A stretch of DNA of 60,000 bases from Malacoraja senta (lineage: Eukaryota). A program made the translations under genes and the position numbers. Numbering within the stretch: position 1 is the stretch's first letter; each line of letters opens with the position of its first letter. Positions 39,351-51,341 of this stretch are shown piece after piece. The notes under the pieces were generated by a model, which searched no databases, was not told where the DNA came from, and was given only the letters and a program-made list of their open reading frames with translations. Location of the stretch: assembly GCA_038087875.1 (NCBI GenBank), contig CM075987.1:20648001-20708000 (forward strand), read 5' to 3'.

Positions 39351-40011
39351 GAGGAAATGAGACTAATTGATTAGCACTTTCAAAGAGTTGACACAGCAAC
39401 GGTGGAACGAACGGCCTTCAATTCTGTGGTATGTTCTCTTGATTCTGCAGTTTTCGGTCTTTCAATTATTTATTCAATTCTCTGCCATTTGAAAGTTATA
39501 ATTGAATCTCCTTCTACCAGGCTTTAAGCCAGCAAATTCCAAATCAGAAGAAGTGGTTGAATAAAATCAAATCTTGACATCTCAACTCAGCCACCACCCA
39601 TAGACACCTCTACACTCACCTTAAATCTGTAACCTCTGGTGACTGACATTCCCTCCTCTCAACTCCCCACTAATTTTGAACAGCTCTGCTGAATTTCCTT
39701 CAATCGCGTCAGAGGTGGCACCAGGCAATCAATTTTATTAATAAAAATTAATGTTTTATTTATTTTGTTTTTTTCTCTCTTAAGATAAGAATAGAGTCGG
39801 AGTGCATCCAGTGCTTGGTGCTGTGCGTCCTTTGTGCTGATTTGATTAGAAGTGGGTCCAAAACCCAGGAGTACGTTAAATATATCTCTTATCCAAGAAA
39901 ACTGAAATTAATTTAAGAATCTTTCATTTGGTTCAAATATAATTAGGAGGGGATCTGGGCGTCAAAGTAATTCTAGAAGACACTTTCTCCTCCCGGGATT
40001 TGTTGTGAATT

Positions 40012-40311
40012 GGGTGGAGCACGTGGCAGAGCTGTAGAGTTGCTGCCTTACAGTGCCAGAGACCCCGGTTTGATCCTGACTAGGTGTGCTGTCTATACAG
40101 AGCTTGTACATTCACTCCATGACCTGCGTGGGTTGTCCCTGGATGCTCCAGCATGACGTAGACGATTGTAGGTTAATTGGTTTGGTGAAATTGTAAAAAG
40201 ATTGTCCCACGTGTGTGTAGGATCGTGTTAATGTGCGGAGATCGCTGGACGGTGTGGACTCAGTGGGCCGAAGGGCCTGTTTCCGCGCTGCATCTCCAAC
40301 ATAAACTAAAA
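40012..40311 (+). mobile_element. V-SINE/HE1-like SINE
   Basis: tRNA-like head (ggtttgatcc) and taaactaaa tail. Confidence 0.75.
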
Positions 40312-40560
40312 CACCCTCTTCAGCAGAATGAGTATGGTAAGTGTGCTGGTTTTATTCCAATGCTTGCCTCTGTGGTTGGGAGAACTATGACAAATTAGTT
40401 GGCTTCTTGGGTCCTTCTGCAACCTGATCCTCGCAGCAAATCTGTGGATATCACGGGAAGCGAAGCCTATTGAGTTCAGCCATGAAACCATGCAAAATCC
40501 CGGTCAAGTGAAGTGAAAATAAATTGCACTTCGCACTAAACCGTGCTTTCAATCACATCT

Positions 40561-40695
40561 TCTTCTTGCGTATGGCGTGCACAGCCTAAAGTTGTAGGTC
40601 AACTTGTTCTATTTGATCTATTTGTTTGTGCACGTCAGGTTGATTGCATTAGTCGAAACAGGGTGGACCATGTGAAGGTTGCAATCTCCAACCCC
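40561..40695 (-). mobile_element. Short non-autonomous retroelement with 5' HDV-like ribozyme (copy 1, partly decayed)
   Basis: TSD aatcacatct at 40551-40560 and 40696-40705; GGGG 5' end; (AAG)n tail; colinear with 49310-49455. Confidence 0.85.
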
Positions 40696-40914
40696 AATCA
40701 CATCTGAGTGGTGCTGAATCGATCAAAGAGGTTGGTAAAATCAGGCCAAACTATGGCGCCAGAATTGGGGGAGGTGGAGATATAATTTAGTTCCAGGTTA
40801 CAGACATAGATAGGCCTTGTATAAATATGACAGCAAGAATAGTATCTGTAATACAATCAAATGACCCAAATTTCCTCAGGGAAGTAAACAGAATGTGACA
40901 TCCAGTCCTAAATG

Positions 40915-41288
40915 GGCACATTGCTGGAATTATTTGAAGAAGTAAATAGCAGGAAAGACAAAGGAGGGTCAGTAGATGTTGTTTACTTAGATTTTCAGAA
41001 AGCCTTTGATAAGGTGCCGCACATGAGGCTGCGAAGGAAGATGAGAGCCTACAGTATGAAAAGGCAATTACTAACATGGATAGCAGGTTGGCTGGATGGC
41101 AGAAGTCAAAGAGTGGCAATAAAGGGGGCTTTTTCTGGTTGACTGCCAGTGACTAGCGGAGTTCCGCAGGGGTCGGTGCTGGGGCCACTACTCTTCACGT
41201 TGTATGTTAATAATTTGGATGAGGGGACTGAAGGCTTTGCCAAAGTCCATGTAAACAACATCTACCATCCTGCCTTCATCTTTTTTCT
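40915..41288 (+). mobile_element. CR1 RT fragment with orientation switch near 41231-41239
   Basis: Plus strand VDVVYLDFQKAFDKVPH and [10 protein letters not shown]; then minus strand [17 protein letters not shown]. Confidence 0.85.
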
Positions 41289-41488
41289 NNNNNNNNNNNN
41301 NNNNNNNNNNNNNNNNNNNNNNNNNNNNNNNNNNNNNNNNNNNNNNNNNNNNNNNNNNNNNNNNNNNNNNNNNNNNNNNNNNNNNNNNNNNNNNNNNNNN
41401 NNNNNNNNNNNNNNNNNNNNNNNNNNNNNNNNNNNNNNNNNNNNNNNNNNNNNNNNNNNNNNNNNNNNNNNNNNNNNNNNNNNNNNNN
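41289..41488. other. Assembly gap (200 N)
   Basis: Run of n. Confidence 1.
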
Positions 41489-41999
41489 ACAACGGATTCT
41501 TGCATGCACACTATCCACATCCATGTGCCATCTAAATGCCACCATCGTATCTACGTCCACCACCACCACCACCTCTGACAGTGCATTCCAGGGACCCACC
41601 ACCCTGTGTAAAACAAAACTGCCACTGCTCATCTTTAAACTTTGCCCCTCTCATCTAAGGCCCTTTAGTCTTTGACATTTCTGTGGAAAAGGTTCTGACT
41701 ACCTCGCATGATTTTATATACACACTACATCAGATGCTTGTGGCAGAGCAGCACCTTGAATGTAATGAGGCCGATGGCCTTCACAGTTGATCAAATAACA
41801 TTTGAGCTGAGCCAAATAAAGTTGCAAGGTTAGATGGTCAAAGGCTTATGTGGGGCCAAGGGAAGGGGTCAGGGATGATCGTGGCAATGGTCTAATCCCA
41901 GAGATGCTCAAAAAATGAGGATTTGAGATGTGCAGATGTCTGACCAGCGAGGTCCAAATGAGAGAGAAGGGGAAGGGAAAGGGAGGAAGCGATGATGGG

Positions 42000-42726
42000 A
42001 TATGAAAATCAGTAGGCCATTCGGCCCTTCGAGCCTGTACCGCCATTCAATATGATCATGGCTGATCATCCAAAATCAGTACCCCCGTTCCTGCTTTCTC
42101 CCCCATATCCCTTGATTTTGTTAGCCCTAAGAGCTATATCTAACTCTCTCTTAAACATCCAATGAATTGGCCTCCACTGCCTTCTGTGGCAGAGAATTCC
42201 ACAGATTCACAACCGTCTGGGTTAAAAAGTTTTTCCTCATCTCAGTCCTAAATGGCCTACCCCTTATTCTTAAACTGTGACCCCTGGTTCTGGACTCTCC
42301 CAACATCAGGACAATTTTTCCTCCATCTAGTCTGTCCAATCCATTAAGAATTGTAAGGTACACAAAAATGCTGGAGAAACTCAGCGGGTGCAGCAGCATC
42401 TATGGAGCTAAGGAAACAGGCAACGTTTCGGGCCGAAACCCTTCTTCAGACTTCTTAAGAATTGTATATGTTTCCATAAGATTCCCTCTCATCCTTCTAA
42501 ATTCCAGTGAATATAAGCCCAGTCAATCCATTATTTCATCATATGTCAGTCCTGCCATCCCAGGAATTAACCTGGCTAACCTACACTGCACTCCCTCAAT
42601 AGCAAGAATGTCCTTCCTCAAATTAGGAGACCAGAACTGCACAGAATACTCCAGGTGAGGTGTCACCAGGGCCCTGTACAACTGCAGTAGGACCTCCTTG
42701 CTCCTATACTCAATTCCGCTTGCTGT
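42000..42726 (-). mobile_element. CR1 3' fragment containing a solo pLTR insert at 42356-42454
   Basis: CR1 ORF2 C-terminus; insert TSD ttaagaattgta at 42344-42355 and 42455-42466. Confidence 0.9.
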
Positions 42727-42836
42727 TGCCCTATTGTTCAGTTTCGAACATTTGTTGGGGAGATGGATGGAGTGAGCGGCTAGGGCATGTTCAGTTTAGA
42801 GATGCAGCACCTTAAGCCCCCCCCCCCCCCCCCCCC

Positions 42837-43077
42837 AGGCAGCATCTCTGGAGAGAATGAATGGGTGACATTACGGGTTGAGACCCTTCTTCAGGCTAGT
42901 CAGGGGAAAGGGATACGAGAGATATATGGTACAATGATATGATGCCTTAATGTATCATATATCCCTCCTTTCCCTTTCCCCTGTCTGAAGAAGGATCTCG
43001 TCCCGAAACGTCACCCATTCCTTCTCTCCAGAGATGCTGCCTGTCCTGCTGAGTTACTCCAGCATTTTGTGTCTACC
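42837..43077. mobile_element. Fold-back Penelope pLTR palindrome with spacer
   Basis: Inverted pLTR halves around 42900-42985. Confidence 0.75.
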
Positions 43078-43268
43078 AGATTACCTTCATTTGACAGTTA
43101 CAATTATAGAGGAGGAAAGTTAATTGGAAGCATTCATAAAAGGAATTCCAGAGAAGATAGGGCGGAGGGTGACTGCATATTCAAAGAACTGAAGTGGCAG
43201 TAGTCTCTCAGGGAAGTGGGGGTCAAAGGTTGGCTCTTTAGGAGGGAAAACAACAACAAATTTGATGG

Positions 43269-43460
43269 TTAAGAAGTTTAAGAAGGAACTGCAGATGCTG
43301 AAAAATCGAAGGTAGACAAAAATGCTGGAGAAACTCAGCGGGTGAGGCAGCATCTATGGAGCGAAGGAAATAGGCAACGTTTCGGCCCGAAACGTTGCCT
43401 ATTTCCTTCGCTCCATAGATGCTGCCTCACCCGCTGAGTTTCCCCAGCGTTTTTGTCTAC
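43269..43460. mobile_element. Fold-back Penelope pLTR palindrome
   Basis: Centre ggcaacgtttcggcccgaaacgttgcc; TSD caacaaatttgatgg at 43254-43268 and 43461-43475. Confidence 0.9.
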
Positions 43461-45474
43461 CAACAAATTTGATGGGGTTGGTGGGAGGTAATAGTTCCCA
43501 ATAGATGACCCAAGAGTGCAGGATCATAAACGTAAGTATAGTTCAATCCTTGAATAACCAATAAATAGGCACAATATAGTAAAGTACAGAGTGATTCGGC
43601 ACAGTAGAATTCCTTTATAAACAATGTGACACATACATGCACACCTAAATAAGTCATGACATGTATATAGGCAAAGGATCTGTAGTCCAAATGCCATGTA
43701 ATATACTCAGAGATAACATCGTACACTGTATAATATTCTGGCATATGTAGTCATTGTATAGTTCTTGCATAATTAGTGTGACTGATGTCTATTCTACTGA
43801 TCTCAACCCCATGATGTACACGGGGTTGACTGTAGAATGTAACTGGATATGTGTACTGGAGAAGAAGCCTAACTCAGCGTGATCATTCTCTAGCAGCAGA
43901 AGTGAGGTTTCAGTCACATCCGCCTGATCAGGTAGCTCTGACACAGCTCTTCCTGGCTGACACTGTGGTGGTGCAATCTGTACAGAGTCAGTGAGATTAT
44001 TGCACACTAAATATATCATCCAATGTCAGCCCTTTGGACCCATATCTTTCCTACAGAGCTGATCTGATCCAACTCAGGATCTCAACAATCATACACACAC
44101 CAACACTGCCTCACAGAAGTATTGCCCAATCAACACGACATGGGTGTTGGGAGATGGAACTGGTATGTTGGTAGATTTGGCACTTTCAGCGGCAGACTCC
44201 GATTTAATCAAAAGTCAAGAAGCCCCAGAATGGACCTGCACCATCTACCCACAGCTCCGTGCCTGGGAATCTAAAGACAGGGGCCTCTCCAATTAATTTA
44301 ATTTAAATCATCGCCGAGTAACAAGATCATAGTTCACCTGGGTGTCTACAGACTTAAGCAAAGGGGGGTTTCAAGATGGGGAGTAAAATGTCCCATGGTC
44401 AGGGAATGTGGTCTGGTGTGGGTTGAATCCAATTCTGGGAAAACAATCACCAGACTGGTGTAGTTCAAGATGGTGGCTTGCCACTACCTTCCTGAAGGCA
44501 ATTAGCGATGAGCAATAAATTGTCAACTATATACACGTGACAAATTATTGCAGCTTCCAAGAGAGAGGAACGTGTACGAATCTGGCCGTCTTCTGTAAAC
44601 AGCAAAACAAAAATTGAAATTGCTCACCTAACCCTTCAAGTTTGTTATATCATTTAATTTGAAATTTAAAAAAATTGTTAATATCGGTCTTCAAAACCAT
44701 TTTTGTGAGATTATGGTGGTGGAAAGTGAAGAAAGTATGAAGTAAATTAGTCAATTTAAGTACGAGAATGATGGAATTACTATTGGTTTATTACTGTCAC
44801 TGTACCAAGATACTGCGGAAAAAAAGTCTTGCATGCTCTCAAGGCTAATCATACCATACATACATCAGTACAATCAAACCATACACAAGTACAATAGGTA
44901 ATGCAAAAGGGGAAAGGAAATAGTGTTTAGAAAACAGTTTAGAATACAATGTTACACCTGCAGAGAAAGTGCAGATTAAAAAATGTTCAAGAACCGCCAC
45001 ACAATAGATTGGGGAAAGAGAAGTGCATCTTTAGATTATGAGAGGTCCATTCAATAGTCTGTTAACAATGGAGAAAAAGATGTTCCTGAATCTGGTGATG
45101 TGCCTTCAAGCTTTTGTACCTTCTGCCTGATGGGAGGAGGAGGAAGGGGAATGATTATAAATGGTGTTTATAAAAAGAACGGTCGTCCTTGATTATGGTG
45201 GCTGTTGTGGCTTCTGAAGGCATGGCTCAGTATAAGGGAATCTCGTTTCATACAGGTGAAGAAGACTTTTTTCTCTAAGTTGAATTGTCAGTCTTTAGGA
45301 TTCCTTGCCACAGAGAGCAGTGAAGACAGACTCCTTGTATAATCATAACTCCGAGGCTTCTAATCATTCAGAGCATTGATGGTAAGGGAGAAAGGACAGT
45401 AAAGTAGATTAAGAAAGTTGGATCAGGTACGATGCCACTGAATGGCAGAGCTGGCTCCAGGAACTGAATGGTTT

Positions 45475-45776
45475 TAGATTTTGAGATACAGCATGGAAAC
45501 AGGCCTTTTTGTCCACCGAGTCCATGCCAACCATCGCATTAGGTCCATGTCATCCATCCACTTTCTCATCCACCACCTACACTTTAGGGGCAATTTAACA
45601 GAGGCCAATTAACCTACAAATCTGCAAGTCTTTGAGATATAGGAAGAAACCAGAGCGCCCAGCGAAAACCTCACAGTCACAGAGAGAACATGCAAACTCA
45701 ACACAGACAGTACACAGTCAGCATTGTACCCATTCTCATGCCCTGTGAGGCTGCAGCTCTACCAGCTGTGCCACCC
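45475..45776 (-). mobile_element. V-SINE/HE1-like SINE
   Basis: Reverse complement of the 18449-18781 type. Confidence 0.75.
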
Positions 45777-46401
45777 ATAACCCTGTTCCTATTTCTAATG
45801 TTGCTACATTTCAATGTTTGATGATTATATATGAACTTACATCAAATTTATAGCATGGAATCGGGTCAATTGGTTTTGCTGTCCATGTTGGGTTTACGTT
45901 CCAAGTGTTTATCCTATTCCAATCGGAAAATTCTCATATAATCTGCTTTCATAGTGTTAATCTTGCTTCTGCTTAAATATATGCATTTGGTATTCGAGTC
46001 AGCCACTCAATGTGGTGGTAAATTCCACCTTCAAAACAATCTCTGGAAATGAAGCTTCTCATGAATTTCCCATCAGATCTATAAACTTGCCAACTGCAAG
46101 TTACTAGCTAATCTCAATTTCATAAGGAGCTCTGTGACCTGCAAGGTAACCATAGCATGACTAAGAGCTCCTGCCTCATTGTTAGCCGTGAAAGATGAAT
46201 ATATTTTAAATCAAGCACATGTCCATCTTAATTGCAAATTGGCAGGAAAATACCAAATTCCTTTCCATTCAAGATTTCTGTTTACACCTGAATACTGAAT
46301 ATAAACCAAAAGGCCTCTTAATTTTCTCAGAAGTAACATTACATTTCTGGCCTTTACTTTGCAAAATGATTTCCCAAGTGAGTAAGACTATTGAAATGTA
46401 G

Positions 46402-46658
46402 AGGGCCTGTCCCACTTGCCGATTTTTTCAGCGACTGCCAGCATCATTGACTGACGTATCAGGTCACCGAAAAATTCGCGGCGTGACGCTGCACGATGCG
46501 GTGGTGACGCGGCGTGATGACGTATGACGCACGGTGTTTTTTCAAGTGTCGCAACATTTTTTTTGTTGCCGCTGGGTTTTGAAATGTTCAAAATCTGTTG
46601 GTGATGCTGATATGATGCCGGCAGTCGCCGAAAAAAATCGCCAAGTGGGACAGGGTCT
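46402..46658. mobile_element. PIF/Harbinger-like MITE
   Basis: TIRs agggcctgtcccacttgccgattttttc / gaaaaaaatcgccaagtgggacagggtct; flanks tag/taa; same family as 35204-35384. Confidence 0.85.
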
Positions 46659-47087
46659 TAAATGGCTCCAAAGTACTAAAGCAAGAGGTAGATAAAACTT
46701 GTGTGGACCCCAGAACTTGTGTGGACCCAACAAAAATTTAACAGAAACCGCACAGGTCCAGAAAGGATTTCACAATATAAAAATAATTTGAGGCCTACGA
46801 CTCCTTATAATCTCTTGAATGTCTTGAACTGCCCAAAGAGTAGCTCATTATCACTAGCCCATCCTTAATGATGAGAAAGGATTGATTCCTGGCTCCTGAT
46901 GAATTGTGTTGCAGCTGGAGGATGATCAGCACTCATAAACCACAGTAAGCAGCCATTCTTGGGGGCATTCTCCTATTTATTTCAATTCTGGTTGAAGTAA
47001 ACCTCAGCTCTGTAACACTTATGCTTAATACCATTTGATACTGAAATAGATGTGGGAAGCTGATAGAGATCAACAAACAGATCAGGA

Positions 47088-47635
47088 ATAGACAATAGGT
47101 GCAGGAGTAGGCCATTTGGCCCTTCGAGCCAGCACCGGCATTGACTGTGACCATGGCTGATCATCCACAATCAGTACCCCGTTCCTGCCTTCTCCCCATA
47201 TCCCTTGACGGCTATCCTTAAGAGCTCTATCTAACTCTCTCTTGAAAGCATCCAGAGAATTGGCCTCCACTGCCTTCTGATGCAGAGAATTCCACAGATT
47301 CACAACTCTCTGAGTGAAAAGGTTTTTCCTCATCTCCATTCTAAATGGCCTACCCTTTATTCTTAAACTGTGGCCCCTGGTTCTGGACTCCCCCAACATT
47401 GGGAACAGGTTTCCTGCCTCTAGCTTGTCCAATCCCTTAATAATCTTATAGGTTTCAATAAGATTCCCTCTCATCCTTCTAAATTTCAGTGTATACAAGC
47501 CCAGTCACTCCATTCTATCAACATATGACAGTCCCGCCATCCTGGGAATTAACCTCGTGAACCTACGCTGCACTTTCCTGTCTGCCAACCAATTTTCTAT
47601 CCAAGTCAGTACCCTATCCCCAATACCATGTGCGC
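47088..47635 (-). mobile_element. CR1 3' fragment with internal deletion
   Basis: ORFs 47082-47498 and 47505-47690 (WIENWLADRK|VQRRFTRLIP). Confidence 0.85.
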
Positions 47636-49309
47636 TAACATAACCATCACAATTTATCTGCTTACCAATACTGCTGCAAACAGTCTGCAAGTTAGCAATC
47701 CATGGCCATCACCAATCTAGTTGACATTTTTCATTTTAATATCACATAACAAATTAAGCAAAGTTGCTCAAATGAAGGTGGAAAAGAGTAGACAATGCGA
47801 AAATTCATCTGCACCAGCATTATTCTGGCTGAAGGAACGAAACACTAACATTCCTGCGATGCCTTTCATGAAACTGGAACACTCTAATGAACTGTTCAAA
47901 CAACAAAAATACTAATTTGTCCAGGTCCAACAAACAGCAACAAGATGATGGAGACACAAGGAATAAGGGTCCTGACCATAAACGGCGCTTGTCTATTCGC
48001 TCCACAGATGCTGCGTGACTCCAGCAGTTTGTGTTTTGAACAAAATGATGGCCTGTTTGCAGTAATACTGGCCATAATACATTTTGTTAAATATATTACT
48101 TCAAGCCATGAATGTGGGCACTCTAAATGATCCTATGTAATCGAGGATTGGGTGTAACCCTCTCCCTATCCCATCATTTGACGAATTTGGGAATAGAATA
48201 TATTCAGTTGAGAGGGGAATTGTTTTTTGCTGAGTGAGCTGCTCTGATCTGGAATGCGTTGCCTGAAAAGTGGGTGGACGTACAATGAACAACTTTCAAT
48301 TGGGATAAATACCTGAAACGTGGAGTAAAAAGTGCAGGGCTATGTAAAGCAATGAGAGATGTGGAAGCTGCACTTTAATGAATGAATAGTTCTGTCCGTG
48401 CCAGTGTAATATTCTAGGCTAAATAACCTCTAATGTTGCATAAATCCATACAAGGATTTCCACAAGGTCTGAATGCTGGGAAACATGGAATGCTGCTCAT
48501 TTCCTATTTGATTGGAATGACTGCAATAGATCCCATGCAATTTAGGCAGTTTCGATGGTAATGTGCTGTCAATGGACTTTAAAACAAACAAAAAGGAACA
48601 TGCCATATAAATGGGAAGCTTTATCATGTGCAATGCCTTGCATTTATTCAACACTGTTTAAAGCAGAGCCCATAATCCATGCTGAGGGAATGCTCCACGG
48701 TCAGAGGTGTCACATGTGGAAGAGACTTAAAACCAAGGAAACTACAAAGTACGTCAGTGTACTTTTGTTTGAAGTATTGAACTTCAGAAATGATGGAAAC
48801 AAAACAGCCCAATCGAACAATGTCGTCTTTAGCAAACAGCAGTGTGATAAAGGACCAGATAAAGCTATATTGGCGGATAAATGTTGGCCAGGCTTCTGGG
48901 GAAGATGCATCTGATCATTTTGAAAATTGTGGAAATAGTGCCTTAGGGCAAAAGGGGCAATGGTTAATGTCCCATCATAAAAACAACATATCCAAGAAGA
49001 AACATCAGCCCCAGTAATGTTCTCAAGTCTCAAGAGGTGAAAATATATGACTTTCTGACTCAGAGGTGAGAATCCTGCCTGCTGAGCAATGTAGATTAGC
49101 GCCTCAATCTCAGGGGTAAAATAGCCACAAATCTTAGAAGGCTTCAGACAAGTGCTGAGTTAGCCAGTTCAAAAGGTCTTATACTATATTCCATTTCGCT
49201 GTTGCTGCAGATTAACTGGAATCAGTTAACTAAAGTTTGTAGGTTAATTAGCCAATGTAAAATTGCCCCTAATGTGCAGGGAGTGTGTGAGAAAGTGGGA
49301 TAATATAGA

Positions 49310-49455
49310 TCTTCTTCTTCTTCTTCTTTCGTGTGGCGTGCACAGCCTAAAGTTGTTGGACAACTTGTTCTATTTGATCTTCCGTTTGTGCACATCGAGT
49401 TGATTGCATTAGTCGAAACAGGGCGGACCGCGTGAAGGTTGCAATCTTCCACCCC
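49310..49455 (-). mobile_element. Short non-autonomous retroelement with 5' HDV-like ribozyme (copy 2)
   Basis: TSD a(t/c)ataga at 49303-49309 and 49456-49462; GGGG 5' end; (GAA)n tail. Confidence 0.85.
49402..49455 (-). ncRNA. Minimal HDV-like self-cleaving ribozyme (54 nt, predicted)
   Basis: GGGGUGG-AA-GAUUGCA-ACC-UUCACGC-GGU-CCGCCCU-G-UUUCGA-CUAA-UGCAAUC gives P1 (G1-U wobble), P2, P3, L3 and a J4/2 CUAA. Confidence 0.8.
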
Positions 49456-51341
49456 ACATAGAACTATGTGAACGGGTGATCAACGGTCGGCGTGGATTTG
49501 GTGGGCCTGTTTCCATGCTGTATCGCTATATTAAACTAGAGGTAGAAGCAGCTCAGATTCCAATATATAATATAACATTTACGCAGCTGATGGAAGAATG
49601 CTGAGCCTCTCAAAGTTCAATCTTCCTTTTGGAAGCCCTGTTGAAATTGGAGTGATGCTGAAGCACTGGAAATAGCCAGAGCAACCGTGAGCTGCTGCGT
49701 AGCACCTCAAGTTCAACGCTGACTGCCCTTTGGACACTCTTGACAAAATACTACATCAGTAATAATCATTCCAGCATCAAAACATTTACAATGACTGATT
49801 CAAGGCCAAGAAAATATCTATTACATCAGCTCTTGTTTCTCTGTGCAGGATTCCTTTGAGGAATGTTGGTATAGTCACAGGAACCCCTTAGAAACACTGA
49901 CAAACATTCAGGCATCCCATTCTGACAGCCTCAAACAACACTCTCCCCCAACCCCAATAAGTATGTGTACAGGAAAATCTGTAAATACTGAGATCCTTTC
50001 AGGGACCACTGTGGATAATGACAGGGGCTCCAGGACTTTTCATGAATTTTGACACATTCTGAGAATACCTGCAAACATTTGGGGAGATGCAGTAGATAGT
50101 CCCAGCTACACCCGTGGTATATGAAGGGAATGACACCAATCATGCCAGATAATGTAACCAGGATATATCTCAACCAGATTATTGAGGAGCTGACTATTGC
50201 TCAGTGGATGGGATTCTCATCTCAGAGGCAGCTGATATAACTAATGTCTCTGGCACATTGTTTAAGGATATTAGTATACAATATTATCTGTTTTTGAAGT
50301 ACTGTTTGTTGAATTTAATGTCACATTTGAGTGCTACACAGCTTCAACCAGGCAGGCGAAACTTGAAGACAGGAAGTGTGTCACTCTTTGCAGAAGATTT
50401 AATCTATGATTTGCCACAGCATTAATATGTCTGATCTAACGTAATAATTCATTTCAATTAGCCAAATTGACTTTGGCTCTTTTCTGCCACATTTAATGGA
50501 ATATTGTCTTGGTGCCGAGTCAGTTTTGCCTCTGCAATTCAACTCACTGCTGGATGGACTGAAAATAATGGGAAGCACTCAGTAGCTTCTTATGTATCTT
50601 GTCTGGAAAATCACAGTACAGTGTTTGGCCTCTTCCTCACCATTCTGCTTCCTATCATTAGTTATCACCTTTCTTTAAATTGCTTTTCATTTTTCCTTCT
50701 AACTATATTTTAATTTCACTTCGAGCAGACGATATTACCCCTCAGAAGTTAGGATGGGTGTATGGTTAGGTGGGGAGATGTCCTAAAATGAGTTAATTAT
50801 TGTGGGAGGTTCCGCACTTTGATACATTTGACAACCAGGAACAGGTTATGTGTGGACTCTGTGAAGTTAATCAGGGAAGTGTACGGCACACATATTATAG
50901 CACTTATTTATTAACATGCATTGCTCATCGAGAAGCAGTGATTCTAAGCAGAACATCCACTGGCTCTGGTTCAATCAGATTCCGAATGTGTTACAGATAT
51001 AATTATTATCACCTTTCATGTGTGAGGTAATGTCAATGGCATATTGCTTGATAATATCAGCATACATAATCCTTCATTATTGAAGTGCTGTTTGTTGAAT
51101 TGCTTGTCACATCCAAGGACTTTAAATCAACTTCTTTCATGGTCTTAAAATAAAACAGTCCAGTAGTCTTGAGTTCAGATGATTAAGAGGCTGATTTCAT
51201 AGTTACTATTTTCTCCAAATTGGCACAAATTGAGAATATTTGCTTTGATATAATGTCCTGTCTTTGTTCAAATGTCACTGTATATCTTACAACTAACATG
51301 TGTTAAAGATGTGGCCCACGGACTAAAGTTATTACATAAAT

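What the first reader, a model, noticed from the sequence alone, without database searches (positions are those of the whole stretch)
49310..49455. A ~140-bp SINE-like element headed by a 54-nt minimal HDV-like ribozyme
Seen (minus strand from 49455): GGGGUGG AA GAUUGCA ACC UUCACGC GGU CCGCCCU G UUUCGA CUAA UGCAAUC. This gives 7-bp P1 opening with a G-U wobble, 7-bp P2, 3-bp P3, a 7-nt L3 of the UYCNCGY type, a single C-G P1.1 pair, P4 reduced to U(UUCG)A, and J4/2 CUAA with the catalytic C. The fold starts at nucleotide 1 of the insertion. There are no tRNA A/B boxes. The 3' part ends GCACGCCA(C/T)ACG(A/C)AAGAAGAA. Known: HDV-like ribozymes head R2, RTE, L1Tc/Ingi-type LINEs and their short derivatives. 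Inference: a promoter-less non-autonomous retroelement (Vingi/Ingi- or RTE-dependent; the tail looks Vingi-like to me) that cuts itself out of host transcripts, carrying an unusually compact ribozyme for a vertebrate genome. Whether this family has been described needs checking.
Basis: partly seen in the sequence, partly recalled or inferred. Interest (0 to 1): 0.8.

Follow-up and report, generated by a model that had tools for sequence, protein, structure and literature searches.

The report
Ribozyme-headed mini retrotransposon and its LINE
A 128-base jumping element present in thousands of copies begins with a very small hepatitis-delta-type self-cutting RNA fold and is a shortened derivative of a longer jumping gene, a known design seen here in a new family.

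Summary
Window 49310-49455 (minus strand) is one copy of a 128-nt element with a (GAA)n tail.

- Abundance: the genome holds at least 4,526 exact copies of a 20-nt ribozyme word. The best 40 full-length matches are 97-100% identical.
- Start point: target-site duplications of 6-14 bp put the element's start at G1, the predicted cleavage site, within 1 nt in 40 of 43 copies.
- Chance: my own descriptor hit only copies of this family in 316,594 bases, against 2 hits in 11 control sets.
- Partner: I found the autonomous partner, a LINE with APE, RT and a C-terminal CCHC and no detectable RNase H. It shares the first ~81 nt, ribozyme included, and the last 36 nt plus tail. The element is therefore a bipartite, ORF-less LINE derivative, not a Pol III SINE.
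- Comparison: published 5' ends of Vingi LINEs have the same fold in the same register, the same L3 (UUCACGU), and 9 of 17 pairs changed on both sides.

Self-cleavage itself is untested, Rfam scores are insignificant, and no RNA data were available. Verdict: a new member of a known kind.

The parts
49310..49455 (-). Copy 1 (young subfamily) of the non-autonomous element: 128-nt body plus (GAA)n tail
49402..49455 (-). 54-nt HDV-like ribozyme fold (element positions 1-54). Predicted cleavage is 5' of G1 at 49455
   Evidence: comparison with Vingi 5' ends
49449..49455 (-). P1 5' strand (pos 1-7, GGGGUGG)
   Evidence: sequence
49440..49446 (-). P2 5' strand (pos 10-16, GAUUGCA). J1/2 is AA at 49447-49448
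   Evidence: sequence
49427..49439 (-). P3 (ACC/GGU, pos 17-19 and 27-29) enclosing L3 (pos 20-26). L3 is UUCACGC here and UUCACGU in the family consensus
49419..49426 (-). P1 3' strand (pos 30-36, CCGCCCU), then J1/4 G37, the partner of C22 in P1.1
   Evidence: sequence
49413..49418 (-). Minimal P4: U38-A43 closing a UUCG loop
   Evidence: sequence
49409..49412 (-). J4/2 CUAA with the putative catalytic C44. Many copies have CGAA instead
49402..49408 (-). P2 3' strand (pos 48-54, UGCAAUC)
   Evidence: sequence
49375..49401 (-). 5' leader shared with the LINE (pos 55-81). It contains GUGCACA, which can pair with UGUGCAC at pos 112-118
49364..49374 (-). Linker (pos 82-92, CAAAUAGAACAAG) found in neither end of the LINE; looks like a partial duplication of the preceding bases
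   Evidence: inference
49330..49363 (-). Part derived from the LINE 3' end (pos 93-126): last six codons of the LINE ORF, the stop TAG at 49347-49349, and the short 3' UTR. Contains the hairpin AAGUUGU-CCA-ACAACUU
49310..49329 (-). (GAA)n tail
49456..49462 (-). Upstream target-site duplication TCTATGT. Its partner TCTATAT lies at 49303-49309 (6 of 7 identical)
40559..40695 (-). Copy 2 (older subfamily: G8, A32, CAUACGCAAG tail), flanked by the TSD ATGTGATT at 40696-40703 and 40551-40558

Best explanation
The element is a bipartite, ORF-less, non-autonomous derivative of a LINE. It keeps the LINE's first ~81 nt (a 54-nt HDV-like self-cleaving ribozyme plus a short leader) and its last 36 nt (end of the ORF, stop codon, ~20-nt 3' UTR) with the (GAA)n tail.

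Proposed mechanism:
1. Copies are transcribed as part of longer RNAs, or from a start upstream. This step is inferred.
2. The ribozyme folds as a nested double pseudoknot and cleaves 5' of G1, using C44 in J4/2. [quoted passage not shown] This step is inferred from the fold and from the exact genomic 5' ends.
3. The LINE's reverse transcriptase recognises the shared 3' end and tail. It copies the RNA into a nicked target by target-primed reverse transcription up to the 5' end. This gives copies that begin at G1, end in (GAA)n and are flanked by 6-14 bp duplications. The products are shown; the enzyme is inferred.
4. The 5' leader may also be bound by the LINE machinery, or may pair with the 3' end. 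That would explain why both ends are retained. This is speculative.
For: Shown directly:
- The sequence and helices are as described.
- There are at least 4,526 exact 20-mer copies, and 40 of 40 scored full-length matches are 97-100% identical.
- The TSD lies within 1 nt of G1 in 40 of the 43 copies that have a TSD, out of 48 examined.
- In contigs of four runs from four coded organisms, depth collapses at 49456 and the loose ends there have low agreement. The 5' boundary is therefore the same elsewhere.
- The descriptor hits only this family, 39 sites in 316,594 bases, against 2 hits in 11 control sets.

Variation:
- Variants at 10% or more in the runs are 2 positions in the 54-nt ribozyme. 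Position 32 changes G to A, which keeps the pair with U5. Position 45 is the free N of C-N-A-A.
- The remaining ~74 nt carry 8 variable positions plus an insertion.
- Both CUAA and CGAA versions amplified; about two thirds of the first 100 places listed are CGAA by my hand count.

LINE partner:
- 41 pattern hits, mostly with one common different upstream sequence.
- Six of them were fetched and aligned to an ORF end with C-x2-C-x10-H-x6-C and a stop inside the shared part.
- RVT_1 scores E = 2.4e-23.
- The APE region lies downstream of a direct-orientation ribozyme in L100.
- The inverted 5' part in L089 runs on into LINE-specific leader.
- There are 117 exact leader/LINE junction 21-mers.

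Comparative evidence, compared by hand from the supplement of PMC5786205. Vingi-2_Gav positions 2-74 have P1, J1/2, P2, P3, L3, P3', P1' and G37 at the same positions, and the identical L3 TTCACGT. Of the 17 pairs in P1-P3, 9 are changed on both sides and still pair, 7 are unchanged, and 1 is C-A.
Against: - No cleavage assay was done. No RNA run was available, so no 5'-OH ends were seen (one search is recorded only as something tried).
- Rfam does not support membership statistically: RF02682 scores 14.3 bits against a gathering score of 44, E = 2.4 in a 271-nt search. There was no HDV-type hit on four further copies and no hit at gathering score.
- P1.1 is a single pair and P4 is almost absent, so activity could be low.
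- J1/2 is only 2 nt. For a different, large HDV-like ribozyme, very short spacers abolished activity (PMC4908430, passages read).
- Only one LINE copy with the ribozyme in direct orientation was read (L100), and it lacks the first ~8 nt.
- None of the 150 scored LINE copies had an open frame above 406 aa. No LINE with the young subfamily's tail appeared among the 41 hits. The current autonomous source for the young subfamily is therefore unidentified.
- The descriptor is my own and was written after I had seen the element.
Confidence: 0.8

Rival explanations
1. The 5' 54-81 nt is a structured module kept for another reason and does not self-cleave efficiently. It could be a binding site for the LINE protein, an internal promoter that fixes the start at G1, or protection of the 5' end.
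For: - Both ends of the LINE are retained in the derivative.
- Vingi-based gene-writing donors are described as carrying both cognate UTRs (PMC13708176, passages).
- In L1Tc the first 77 nt act as promoter and as ribozyme (PMC3383444, abstract).
- P1.1 and P4 are minimal here.
- Rfam scores are insignificant.
Against: - The unpaired core that makes up the HDV active site is what stays invariant between this family and the Vingi 5' ends: L3 UUCACGU, G37, and C-N-A-A. The helices co-vary. That pattern is the one expected of a ribozyme.
- These functions do not exclude cleavage.
Confidence: 0.12
2. It is an ordinary Pol III-transcribed SINE with an unrecognised head, and the HDV-like fold is a coincidence.
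For: - It is short and high in copy number, with a precise 5' end.
- GUUUCGAC weakly resembles part of a B box (my reading; the consensus is recalled).
Against: - ARAGORN finds no tRNA and Rfam finds no tRNA, 7SL, 5S or snRNA match.
- The same 5' ~81 nt heads a protein-coding LINE.
- The descriptor's false-positive rate is about 2 hits per 11 x 633 kb of control sequence, yet the fold sits exactly at nt 1.
- The same fold in the same register is present at published Vingi 5' ends.
Confidence: 0.03
3. The short element is not mobilised as a unit. It arises again and again by internal deletion or template switching during LINE insertion.
For: - Other deletion forms exist, for example L080 with a longer LINE leader joined to a shorter 3' part.
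- LINE copies often carry rearranged 5' ends.
Against: - Thousands of copies share the same internal junction and an 11-nt linker that is absent from the LINE.
- They fall into subfamilies with diagnostic changes, and 40 of 40 top matches are 97-100% identical over the full length.
- This is the signature of master copies being retrotransposed.
Confidence: 0.02

Closest known systems
NARTc/L1Tc and RIME/Ingi of trypanosomes (bipartite non-autonomous LINEs with an HDV-like ribozyme in the first 77 nt)
   Same: - A short ORF-less derivative keeps the 5' and 3' ends of its LINE.
- The ribozyme sits at nt 1 and defines the RNA 5' end.
Sources: PMC3185411 and PMC3383444 (abstracts); PMC5786205 (section 23).
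   Different: - The host here is an animal genome of 1.94 Gb.
- The ribozyme is 54 nt with a near-absent P4, against 77 nt.
- The tail is (GAA)n.
- The LINE here shows no RNase H.
- Promoter activity of the 5' module is untested.
Vingi-clade LINEs and their internally deleted derivatives (Kojima et al. 2011, not held; cited through PMC5786205)
   Same: - The printed 5' ends of Vingi-2_Gav, Vingi-4_Crp, Vingi-2_SPur and Vingi-1_BF have the same helix register and the same or nearly the same L3. They also have G at J1/4 and C-G/A-A-A at J4/2.
- The protein layout is APE plus RT without RNase H (PMC13708176; Pfam).
- The clade is known to spawn bipartite derivatives.
   Different: - The P1, P2 and P3 sequences differ: 21 of 37 positions are identical to Vingi-2_Gav by hand.
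- P4 is reduced from a ~5-bp stem with a large loop to U(UUCG)A.
- Membership by RT phylogeny was not tested.
- The 2018 paper does not list Vingi among the ribozyme-bearing clades.
R2 SIDEs and RTE-derived bipartite elements
   Same: - These are internal-deletion derivatives that keep a 5' HDV-like ribozyme and the 3' UTR (PMC3414825, abstract; PMC5786205, section 23).
   Different: - R2 is site-specific for 28S rDNA and uses a restriction-like endonuclease. This element inserts genome-wide with 6-14 bp TSDs.
- The LINE has an APE-type N-terminal domain by my reading of the translation (no profile search was run on it) and a C-terminal CCHC.
Mammalian CPEB3 intronic ribozyme and minimal HDV-like ribozymes (microbiome, theta)
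   Same: - L3 UUCACGU is shared. A mouse Cpeb3 ribozyme primer that starts 18 nt from the cleavage site begins G-TTCACGT.
- A single-pair P1.1 and a short J1/2 are features I recall for CPEB3.
- A P4 that can be dispensed with is recalled from Riccitelli et al. 2014, which I did not read.
   Different: - CPEB3 is a single-copy intronic ribozyme with a full P4.
- The minimal forms described so far are bacterial or phage (abstract of 10.1101/2023.06.13.544163). This one heads a retrotransposon in an animal genome.

Membership tests
HDV-like self-cleaving ribozyme | P1 begins at the cleavage-site nucleotide (PMC4908430); 7 bp with a G-U pair at its base | tested here: met
   G1-U36 and six further pairs. 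The element's genomic 5' end is at G1.
HDV-like self-cleaving ribozyme | Nested double pseudoknot: P2 pairs the 3' end with the strand after J1/2; P3 with L3 is enclosed; P1.1 links L3 and J1/4 | tested here: met
   P2 7 bp, P3 3 bp, L3 7 nt, C22-G37. The descriptor scan hits only this family. P1.1 is a single pair.
HDV-like self-cleaving ribozyme | Catalytic cytosine in J4/2 (C-N-R-A; motif recalled) | tested here: met
   C44-U-A-A. The variant C-G-A-A is common. Its catalytic role was not tested.
HDV-like self-cleaving ribozyme | Helices supported by compensatory change | tested here: met
   By hand against Vingi-2_Gav as printed in the supplement of PMC5786205: 9 of 17 pairs changed on both sides, 7 the same, 1 C-A. 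Within the family: U5-G32 to U5-A32 and C15-G49 to U15-G49. No tool was run on the Vingi sequences.
HDV-like self-cleaving ribozyme | Significant match to a curated covariance model | tested here: not met
   RF02682 14.3 bits against gathering 44, E = 2.4. Nothing at gathering score. No HDV-type hit on L095, L096, L097 or L100. Rfam models cannot score the pseudoknot helices.
HDV-like self-cleaving ribozyme | Site-specific self-scission giving a 5'-OH at G1 | not testable with these tools
   No assay was possible. No run on record as RNA and no raw reads.
Bipartite ORF-less non-autonomous LINE | 5' end shared with an autonomous LINE | tested here: met
   L100: ribozyme and leader in direct orientation, followed by the 5' UTR and an APE-type ORF. 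L089: the inverted part runs into LINE-specific leader. 117 junction 21-mers. Only one direct copy was read.
Bipartite ORF-less non-autonomous LINE | 3' end and tail shared with the same LINE; no ORF of its own; TSDs | tested here: met
   Last 36 nt plus (GAA)n, equal to the ORF end, the stop and the 3' UTR. TSDs of 6-14 bp.
SINE in the strict sense (Pol III head from tRNA, 7SL, 5S or snRNA) | Head derived from a small RNA gene with an internal promoter | tested here: not met
   ARAGORN found 0 genes in 40000-50000. No Rfam match to such RNAs.
Vingi clade of LINEs | Compact APE + RT element lacking RNase H (PMC13708176) | tested here: inconclusive
   An APE-like region by my reading of the translation (no profile search was run on it). 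RVT_1 E = 2.4e-23, and no Pfam family in the 212-aa C-terminal piece. All copies read are broken, so a single intact ORF and the full length are not shown.
Vingi clade of LINEs | RT groups with Vingi in a phylogeny | not tested
   No reference Vingi, Ingi or RTE proteins could be obtained. PDB gives only generic LINE RT matches (best L1 ORF2p, 4.5e-12).
Vingi clade of LINEs | Conserved 5'-terminal ~70 nt as in Repbase Vingi families | tested here: met
   Same register and core motifs, compared by hand with the sequences printed in the supplement. 21 of 37 positions are identical to Vingi-2_Gav.

The most novel reading that the evidence does not exclude
The 5' ~55-75 nt of Vingi-type LINEs may be an ancestral CPEB3-type HDV ribozyme that defines this clade across deuterostomes. 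It would span this genome's family, crocodilians, amphioxus and sea urchin.

That would explain two things:
- why the clade so readily spawns 5'+3' bipartite parasites;
- why engineered Vingi donors are built with the 5' UTR.

It would also make the single-copy mammalian CPEB3 intronic ribozyme a candidate exapted Vingi 5' end. The human genome carries Vingi fossils (X12_LINE, PMC5753468). The family found here would then be the most reduced natural version, at 54 nt, with P4 cut to a UUCG loop.
Probability: 0.35. Interest if true: 0.8.

Novelty: new member of a known kind. Interest (0 to 1): 0.55.

Why it matters
**A compact natural ribozyme with a built-in activity record.** If active, this would be a very compact (54 nt) natural HDV-like ribozyme from an animal genome. 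Thousands of genomic copies begin at its predicted cleavage site.

**A clade not yet listed.** It extends ribozyme-headed LINEs and their bipartite parasites to a LINE type that the 2018 survey I read did not list among the ribozyme-bearing clades (PMC5786205).

**Gene-insertion tools.** Vingi elements are being developed for this purpose, with donor RNAs that carry both UTRs (PMC13708176). Knowing that the 5' UTR starts with a self-cleaving, 5'-end-defining fold is directly useful there.

**Annotation.** These elements should be classed as LINE derivatives, not SINEs.

**Origin of the CPEB3 ribozyme.** The comparison makes this question testable.

Tried and rejected
**Partner hunt, patterns that failed.** Patterns with 'not' letters placed just after the ribozyme, in P4, or upstream of the 3' hairpin gave 14, 7, 3, 17 and 13 hits. 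All were copies of the short element with indels or with other repeats inserted. They failed because the LINE shares more of the 5' part (to about position 81) than I had assumed.

**False leads in that hunt:**
- L033/L045 has a repeat occurring as inverted pairs inserted after the ribozyme.
- L031/L070 has a 5'-truncated CR1-like LINE (esterase-type ORF1 end, EN, RT) inserted with a 5-bp TSD.
- L093 and L095-L098 have other small repeats inserted at CAAATAGAACAAG.
- One search gave 2 hits, both indel copies.

**Local searches:**
- Local BLAST of the element against 291,615 bases found no partial copies beyond those already known.
- No other family ending in (GAA)n occurred in that sample.

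**RNA evidence.** No RNA holder was listed. All 24 runs are Logan contigs, so starts and ends of RNA molecules cannot be read.

**Related LINE family.** A family at ~40% amino-acid identity has frames up to 886 aa. The one 501-nt stretch I could still fetch showed no ribozyme upstream of its EN start; the copy begins after a (TTGA)n tract. This is inconclusive, because the copy may be truncated.

**Protein and RNA database searches:**
- PDB search for a Vingi structure gave only generic matches.
- Rfam on four more copies gave no HDV hit.

**Earlier findings of this scan.** Nothing was found for this place or sequence, and three unrelated items by words.

**Literature.**
- Papers holding both 'Vingi' and 'ribozyme': 6, none describing a Vingi ribozyme.
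- 'HDV-like' + ribozyme + SINE + retrotransposon: 16 papers, none on a vertebrate family of this kind.
- The search was badly designed and returned nothing useful.
- Text searches for a 13-nt motif found no paper.
- PMC3308841, PMC3159031 and PMC3002237 are not held. I therefore could not read the primary papers on RTE ribozymes, on the 2009 survey, or on Vingi.
Full report
**1. The observation**

On the minus strand from 49455 the window reads GGGGTGGAAGATTGCAACCTTCACGCGGTCCGCCCTGTTTCGACTAATGCAATC. A further 74 nt follow, then (GAA)n.

| Element | Positions | Detail |
|---|---|---|
| P1 | 1-7 / 30-36 | 7 bp; G1-U36 and U5-G32 wobbles |
| J1/2 | 8-9 | AA |
| P2 | 10-16 / 48-54 | 7 bp |
| P3 | 17-19 / 27-29 | 3 bp |
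| L3 | 20-26 | 7 nt |
| J1/4 | 37 | G, able to pair with C22 (P1.1) |
| P4 | 38-43 | U38-A43 closing UUCG |
| J4/2 | 44-47 | CUAA |

PMC4908430 (passages read) describes the family as a nested double pseudoknot. [quoted passage not shown] The layout here matches that description.

**2. Is it a repeat, and where does it start?**

- The genome (1.94 Gb, 6182 contigs) gave 1679 first-look candidates. All 40 scored were full length and 97-100% identical.
- A 20-nt word spanning P4, J4/2 and P2' (with K at position 45) occurs 4,526 times. The reversed control occurs 0 times.
- In 48 full-length copies, 43 have an exact target-site duplication of 6-14 bp (median 11).
- The duplication touches G1 with no extra base in 30 copies, one extra in 10, two in 1 and three in 2. 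Three pairs of rows are segmental duplicates.
- The window copy has an imperfect duplication, TCTATGT / TCTATAT.
- A second, older copy lies at 40559-40695 (minus strand) with the duplication ATGTGATT. My first search, limited to 3 mismatches, had missed it.
- In Logan contigs of four runs from four coded organisms, 996, 753, 110 and 2 contigs were laid. Depth collapses at 49456, and the loose ends beyond it agree poorly (0.37-0.46). This is the pattern expected if the flanks differ from copy to copy, so the 5' boundary is the same in those organisms.

**3. Chance**

I wrote an HDV-like descriptor with these requirements:
- G1;
- 7-bp P1 ending in G-U or G-C;
- J1/2 of 0-8 nt;
- P2 of 5-8 bp;
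- 3-bp P3;
- L3 of 7-8 nt with U at 1, C at 2 or 3, and G at 6;
- G after P1';
- up to 90 nt, then C-N-R-A followed directly by P2'.

In 316,594 bases (window plus fetched loci, both strands) it hit 39 distinct sites, and every one was a copy of this element. The reversed sequence gave 1 hit. Ten dinucleotide shuffles gave 0,1,0,0,0,0,0,0,0,0.

The descriptor was written after I had seen the element. It measures how rare such a fold is, not an unbiased discovery rate. A fold this rare sitting exactly at nucleotide 1 of a retroelement is not chance.

Against the fold:
- Rfam gives nothing at gathering score.
- It gives a weak match to RF02682 (14.3 bits, gathering 44, E = 2.4), although the alignment runs end to end over exactly 49402-49455.
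- Four other copies gave no HDV-type hit.
- Nested folding shows no excess stability (z = 0.25). That method cannot see pseudoknots.

**4. Variation within the family**

At least three subfamilies exist.

| Subfamily | Ribozyme features | Other features |
|---|---|---|
| Young | A8, G32, U45 | leader AACTCGACG…GGAAGATC; tail CACACGAAAG |
| Older | G8, A32 | leader AACCCGA(C/T)G…AAATAGATC; tail CATACGCAAG |
| Third | many with G45 | leader AACC(C/T)GGCGTGCACAATCAAATAAGATC |

The differences that mark subfamilies inside the ribozyme are these:
- Position 8 lies in J1/2.
- Position 32 changes U5-G to U5-A.
- Position 45 is the free N of C-N-A-A.
- Position 15 changes C-G to U-G in L038 and L039.

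None of them breaks a helix.

In the four runs, variants at 10% or more fall at 2 ribozyme positions (32 and 45). The remaining ~74 nt carry 8 variable positions plus one insertion.

Both CUAA and CGAA forms amplified. About two thirds of the first 100 places listed are CGAA (my hand count).

The last L3 base is U in this genome, in every row except the window copy. It shows no alternative to C at 10% or more in the four runs. I read this as a species difference at a tolerated position, but did not follow it up.

**5. The partner LINE**

Five pattern searches failed (see Tried and rejected). A pattern asking for the last 29 nt preceded by something other than the element's own sequence then gave 41 hits. 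Most of them share one different upstream sequence.

Six fetched copies align over 300-600 nt. They translate to the end of an ORF: …WGMxDSPACDCGHPDQTIPHIVNDCPLRLFPGGIKAIHPVTDAVLAWMSTLDLQL*. The stop codon TAG lies inside the part shared with the short element. The element's last 36 nt are therefore six codons, the stop and a ~20-nt 3' UTR of this LINE, plus the same (GAA)n tail.

Other features of the LINE:
- Longer copies carry an RT domain (RVT_1, E = 2.4e-23), and no Pfam family is found in the 212-aa C-terminal piece, so no RNase H is detectable.
- L100 shows the 5' end in direct orientation. The ribozyme runs from about position 9 and the leader to …AAATAGAT. Then comes LINE-specific sequence (GTAGTGTTTTGGTG…), about 130 nt of 5' UTR, and an ORF that by my reading of the translation (no profile search was run on this ORF) is an AP-endonuclease domain: …NVYKPP…GDFNSHH…NPDL…HFPHSQHRP….
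- That ORF lies just upstream of, and on the same strand as, the RT-side matches.
- The junction 21-mer between the shared leader and the LINE-specific sequence occurs 117 times, with 0 in the control.

The short element therefore consists of:
- LINE positions 1 to ~81;
- an 11-nt linker not seen in the LINE;
- the LINE's last 36 nt.

It is a bipartite ORF-less non-autonomous LINE in the sense of PMC5786205 (section 23 read).

Limits:
- Only one direct 5' end was read, and it lacks ~8 nt.
- All LINE copies read are broken.
- Among 150 scored C-terminal matches (3851 candidates), the longest open frame is 406 aa.
- No LINE copy with the young subfamily's tail variant appeared among the 41 hits.
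- The enzyme source for the recent burst is therefore not identified.
- A related family at ~40% identity has frames up to 886 aa. The only stretch I could still fetch showed no ribozyme.

**6. Comparison with published elements**

The supplement of PMC5786205 prints alignments of a crocodilian SINE with the 5' ends of several Repbase LINEs:
- Vingi-2_Gav, positions 2-74;
- Vingi-4_Crp, positions 1-64;
- Vingi-2_SPur, positions 395-451;
- Vingi-1_BF, positions 8-69.

Read by hand, Vingi-2_Gav has the same register as the element here: P1 1-7, J1/2 8-9, P2 10-16, P3 17-19, L3 20-26 (TTCACGT, identical), P3' 27-29, P1' 30-36 and G37. After that it has a longer P4, CGAA, and a perfect 7-bp P2'.

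Of the 17 pairs in P1-P3:
- 9 differ on both sides and still pair (5:32, 7:30, five of the seven P2 pairs, 17:29 and 19:27);
- 7 are the same;
- 1 (6:31) is C-A in the printed consensus.

Helices co-vary while the core that forms the active site does not. That is the strongest comparative support for the fold that I obtained.

The protein layout agrees with the description of Vingi in PMC13708176: compact, single ORF, APE-type, no RNase H (passages). I could not run a phylogeny.

In the library searched, no paper links Vingi to a ribozyme. [quoted passage not shown] Three primary papers are not held: Kojima 2011, Ruminski 2011 and Webb 2009. I cannot exclude that the point is made in one of them or in Repbase notes.

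**7. Mechanism**

Shown:
- the fold;
- the exact genomic 5' ends;
- the TSDs and the tail;
- the shared ends with a LINE.

Inferred:
- The element is transcribed within longer RNAs.
- It cleaves itself at G1.
- It is reverse-transcribed in trans by the LINE enzyme, which recognises the 3' end.

The retention of the leader suggests a second role for the 5' end. So does a possible pairing between GUGCACA (63-69) and UGUGCAC (112-118), which extends to 10 bp in the third subfamily and is present in the MFE fold. That role could be protein binding or an end-to-end RNA structure. This is speculation. An internal promoter, as in L1Tc, is not excluded.

**8. Verdict**

The element is a new family of a known design, not a new kind of system. 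Its interest lies in three things:
- the very small natural ribozyme;
- the link to Vingi-type LINEs;
- the testable idea that this ribozyme module is ancestral to that clade and related to the CPEB3 ribozyme.

Noticed in passing
L087, L089, L099; G000 places listed: Many 5'-truncated LINE copies are preceded by the first ~80 nt of the element (ribozyme plus leader) in inverted orientation, with a different junction in each, much like twin-priming inversions of L1. This holds for 3 of the 8 LINE copies I read. Of 7 leader-junction sites that lie within ~1.3 kb of a scored LINE-body match, 6 are on the opposite strand and 1 is direct (hand pairing of coordinates). The inverted part always starts near position 76-80.
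   Followed up: partly
supplement of PMC5786205; PMC10919898 methods: The printed 5' ends of Repbase Vingi families from gharial, crocodile, sea urchin and amphioxus look like CPEB3-type HDV ribozymes. A mouse Cpeb3 ribozyme primer said to start 18 nt from the cleavage site is identical at 14 of 15 positions to Vingi-2_Gav 19-33. The wider likeness to the CPEB3 ribozyme is from my memory and was not tested.
   Followed up: partly
window 40559-40695 (minus): A second copy of the element, from the older subfamily, with an 8-bp TSD.
   Followed up: yes
L081, L082, L085, L086: 3' ends of an abundant CR1-like LINE (ending ...TTCTATGTTTCTATG) are inserted into copies of the element at the same spot (AACAAG|TT) with different 5' truncations. 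L085 and L086 share one junction (…TTCTATG|TTTAGGCTGTGCAC) at two loci. This could be an insertion hot spot or chimeric cDNAs.
   Followed up: no
L093, L095, L096, L098: Other small repeats are inserted at the element's CAAATAGAACAAG. In L095 and L096 the insert begins GGGTTT…GAAGAAGGGTTTC(A/G)GCCCGAAACGTTACCTATTTCC…, and the element's TCAAATAGAACAAG follows it again in L095 and L096, which I read as a long TSD. In L093 and L098 the insert begins (G/A)TAGACAAAAATGCTGGAGAAACTCAGCGGG….
   Followed up: no
L045 215-490; A ~260-290-nt repeat occurring as closely spaced inverted pairs (1875 first-look candidates), probably the terminal repeats of a DNA transposon or MITE. One copy is inserted in a copy of the element.
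   Followed up: no
G000:C6:42560846-42561346 (minus), C1:165942556-165943053 (minus) and others: A related LINE family at ~40-42% amino-acid identity has open frames up to 886 aa, far more intact than the partner family. The one 5' stretch I fetched (L101) starts after a (TTGA)n tract and shows no ribozyme.
   Followed up: partly
window 49430; The last L3 base is C in the window copy, with no alternative at 10% or more in contigs of four coded organisms. In the other copies read from this genome it is T, apart from one row with an indel there. Probably a lineage difference at a tolerated position.
   Followed up: no
window 49456-49560 and 49200-49309: Copy 1 sits inside another interspersed repeat (…CAGCATGGAAACAGGCCC…CCACGCCGACC…), which also occurs in the flanks of several fetched loci (for example L028 and L037).
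   Followed up: no
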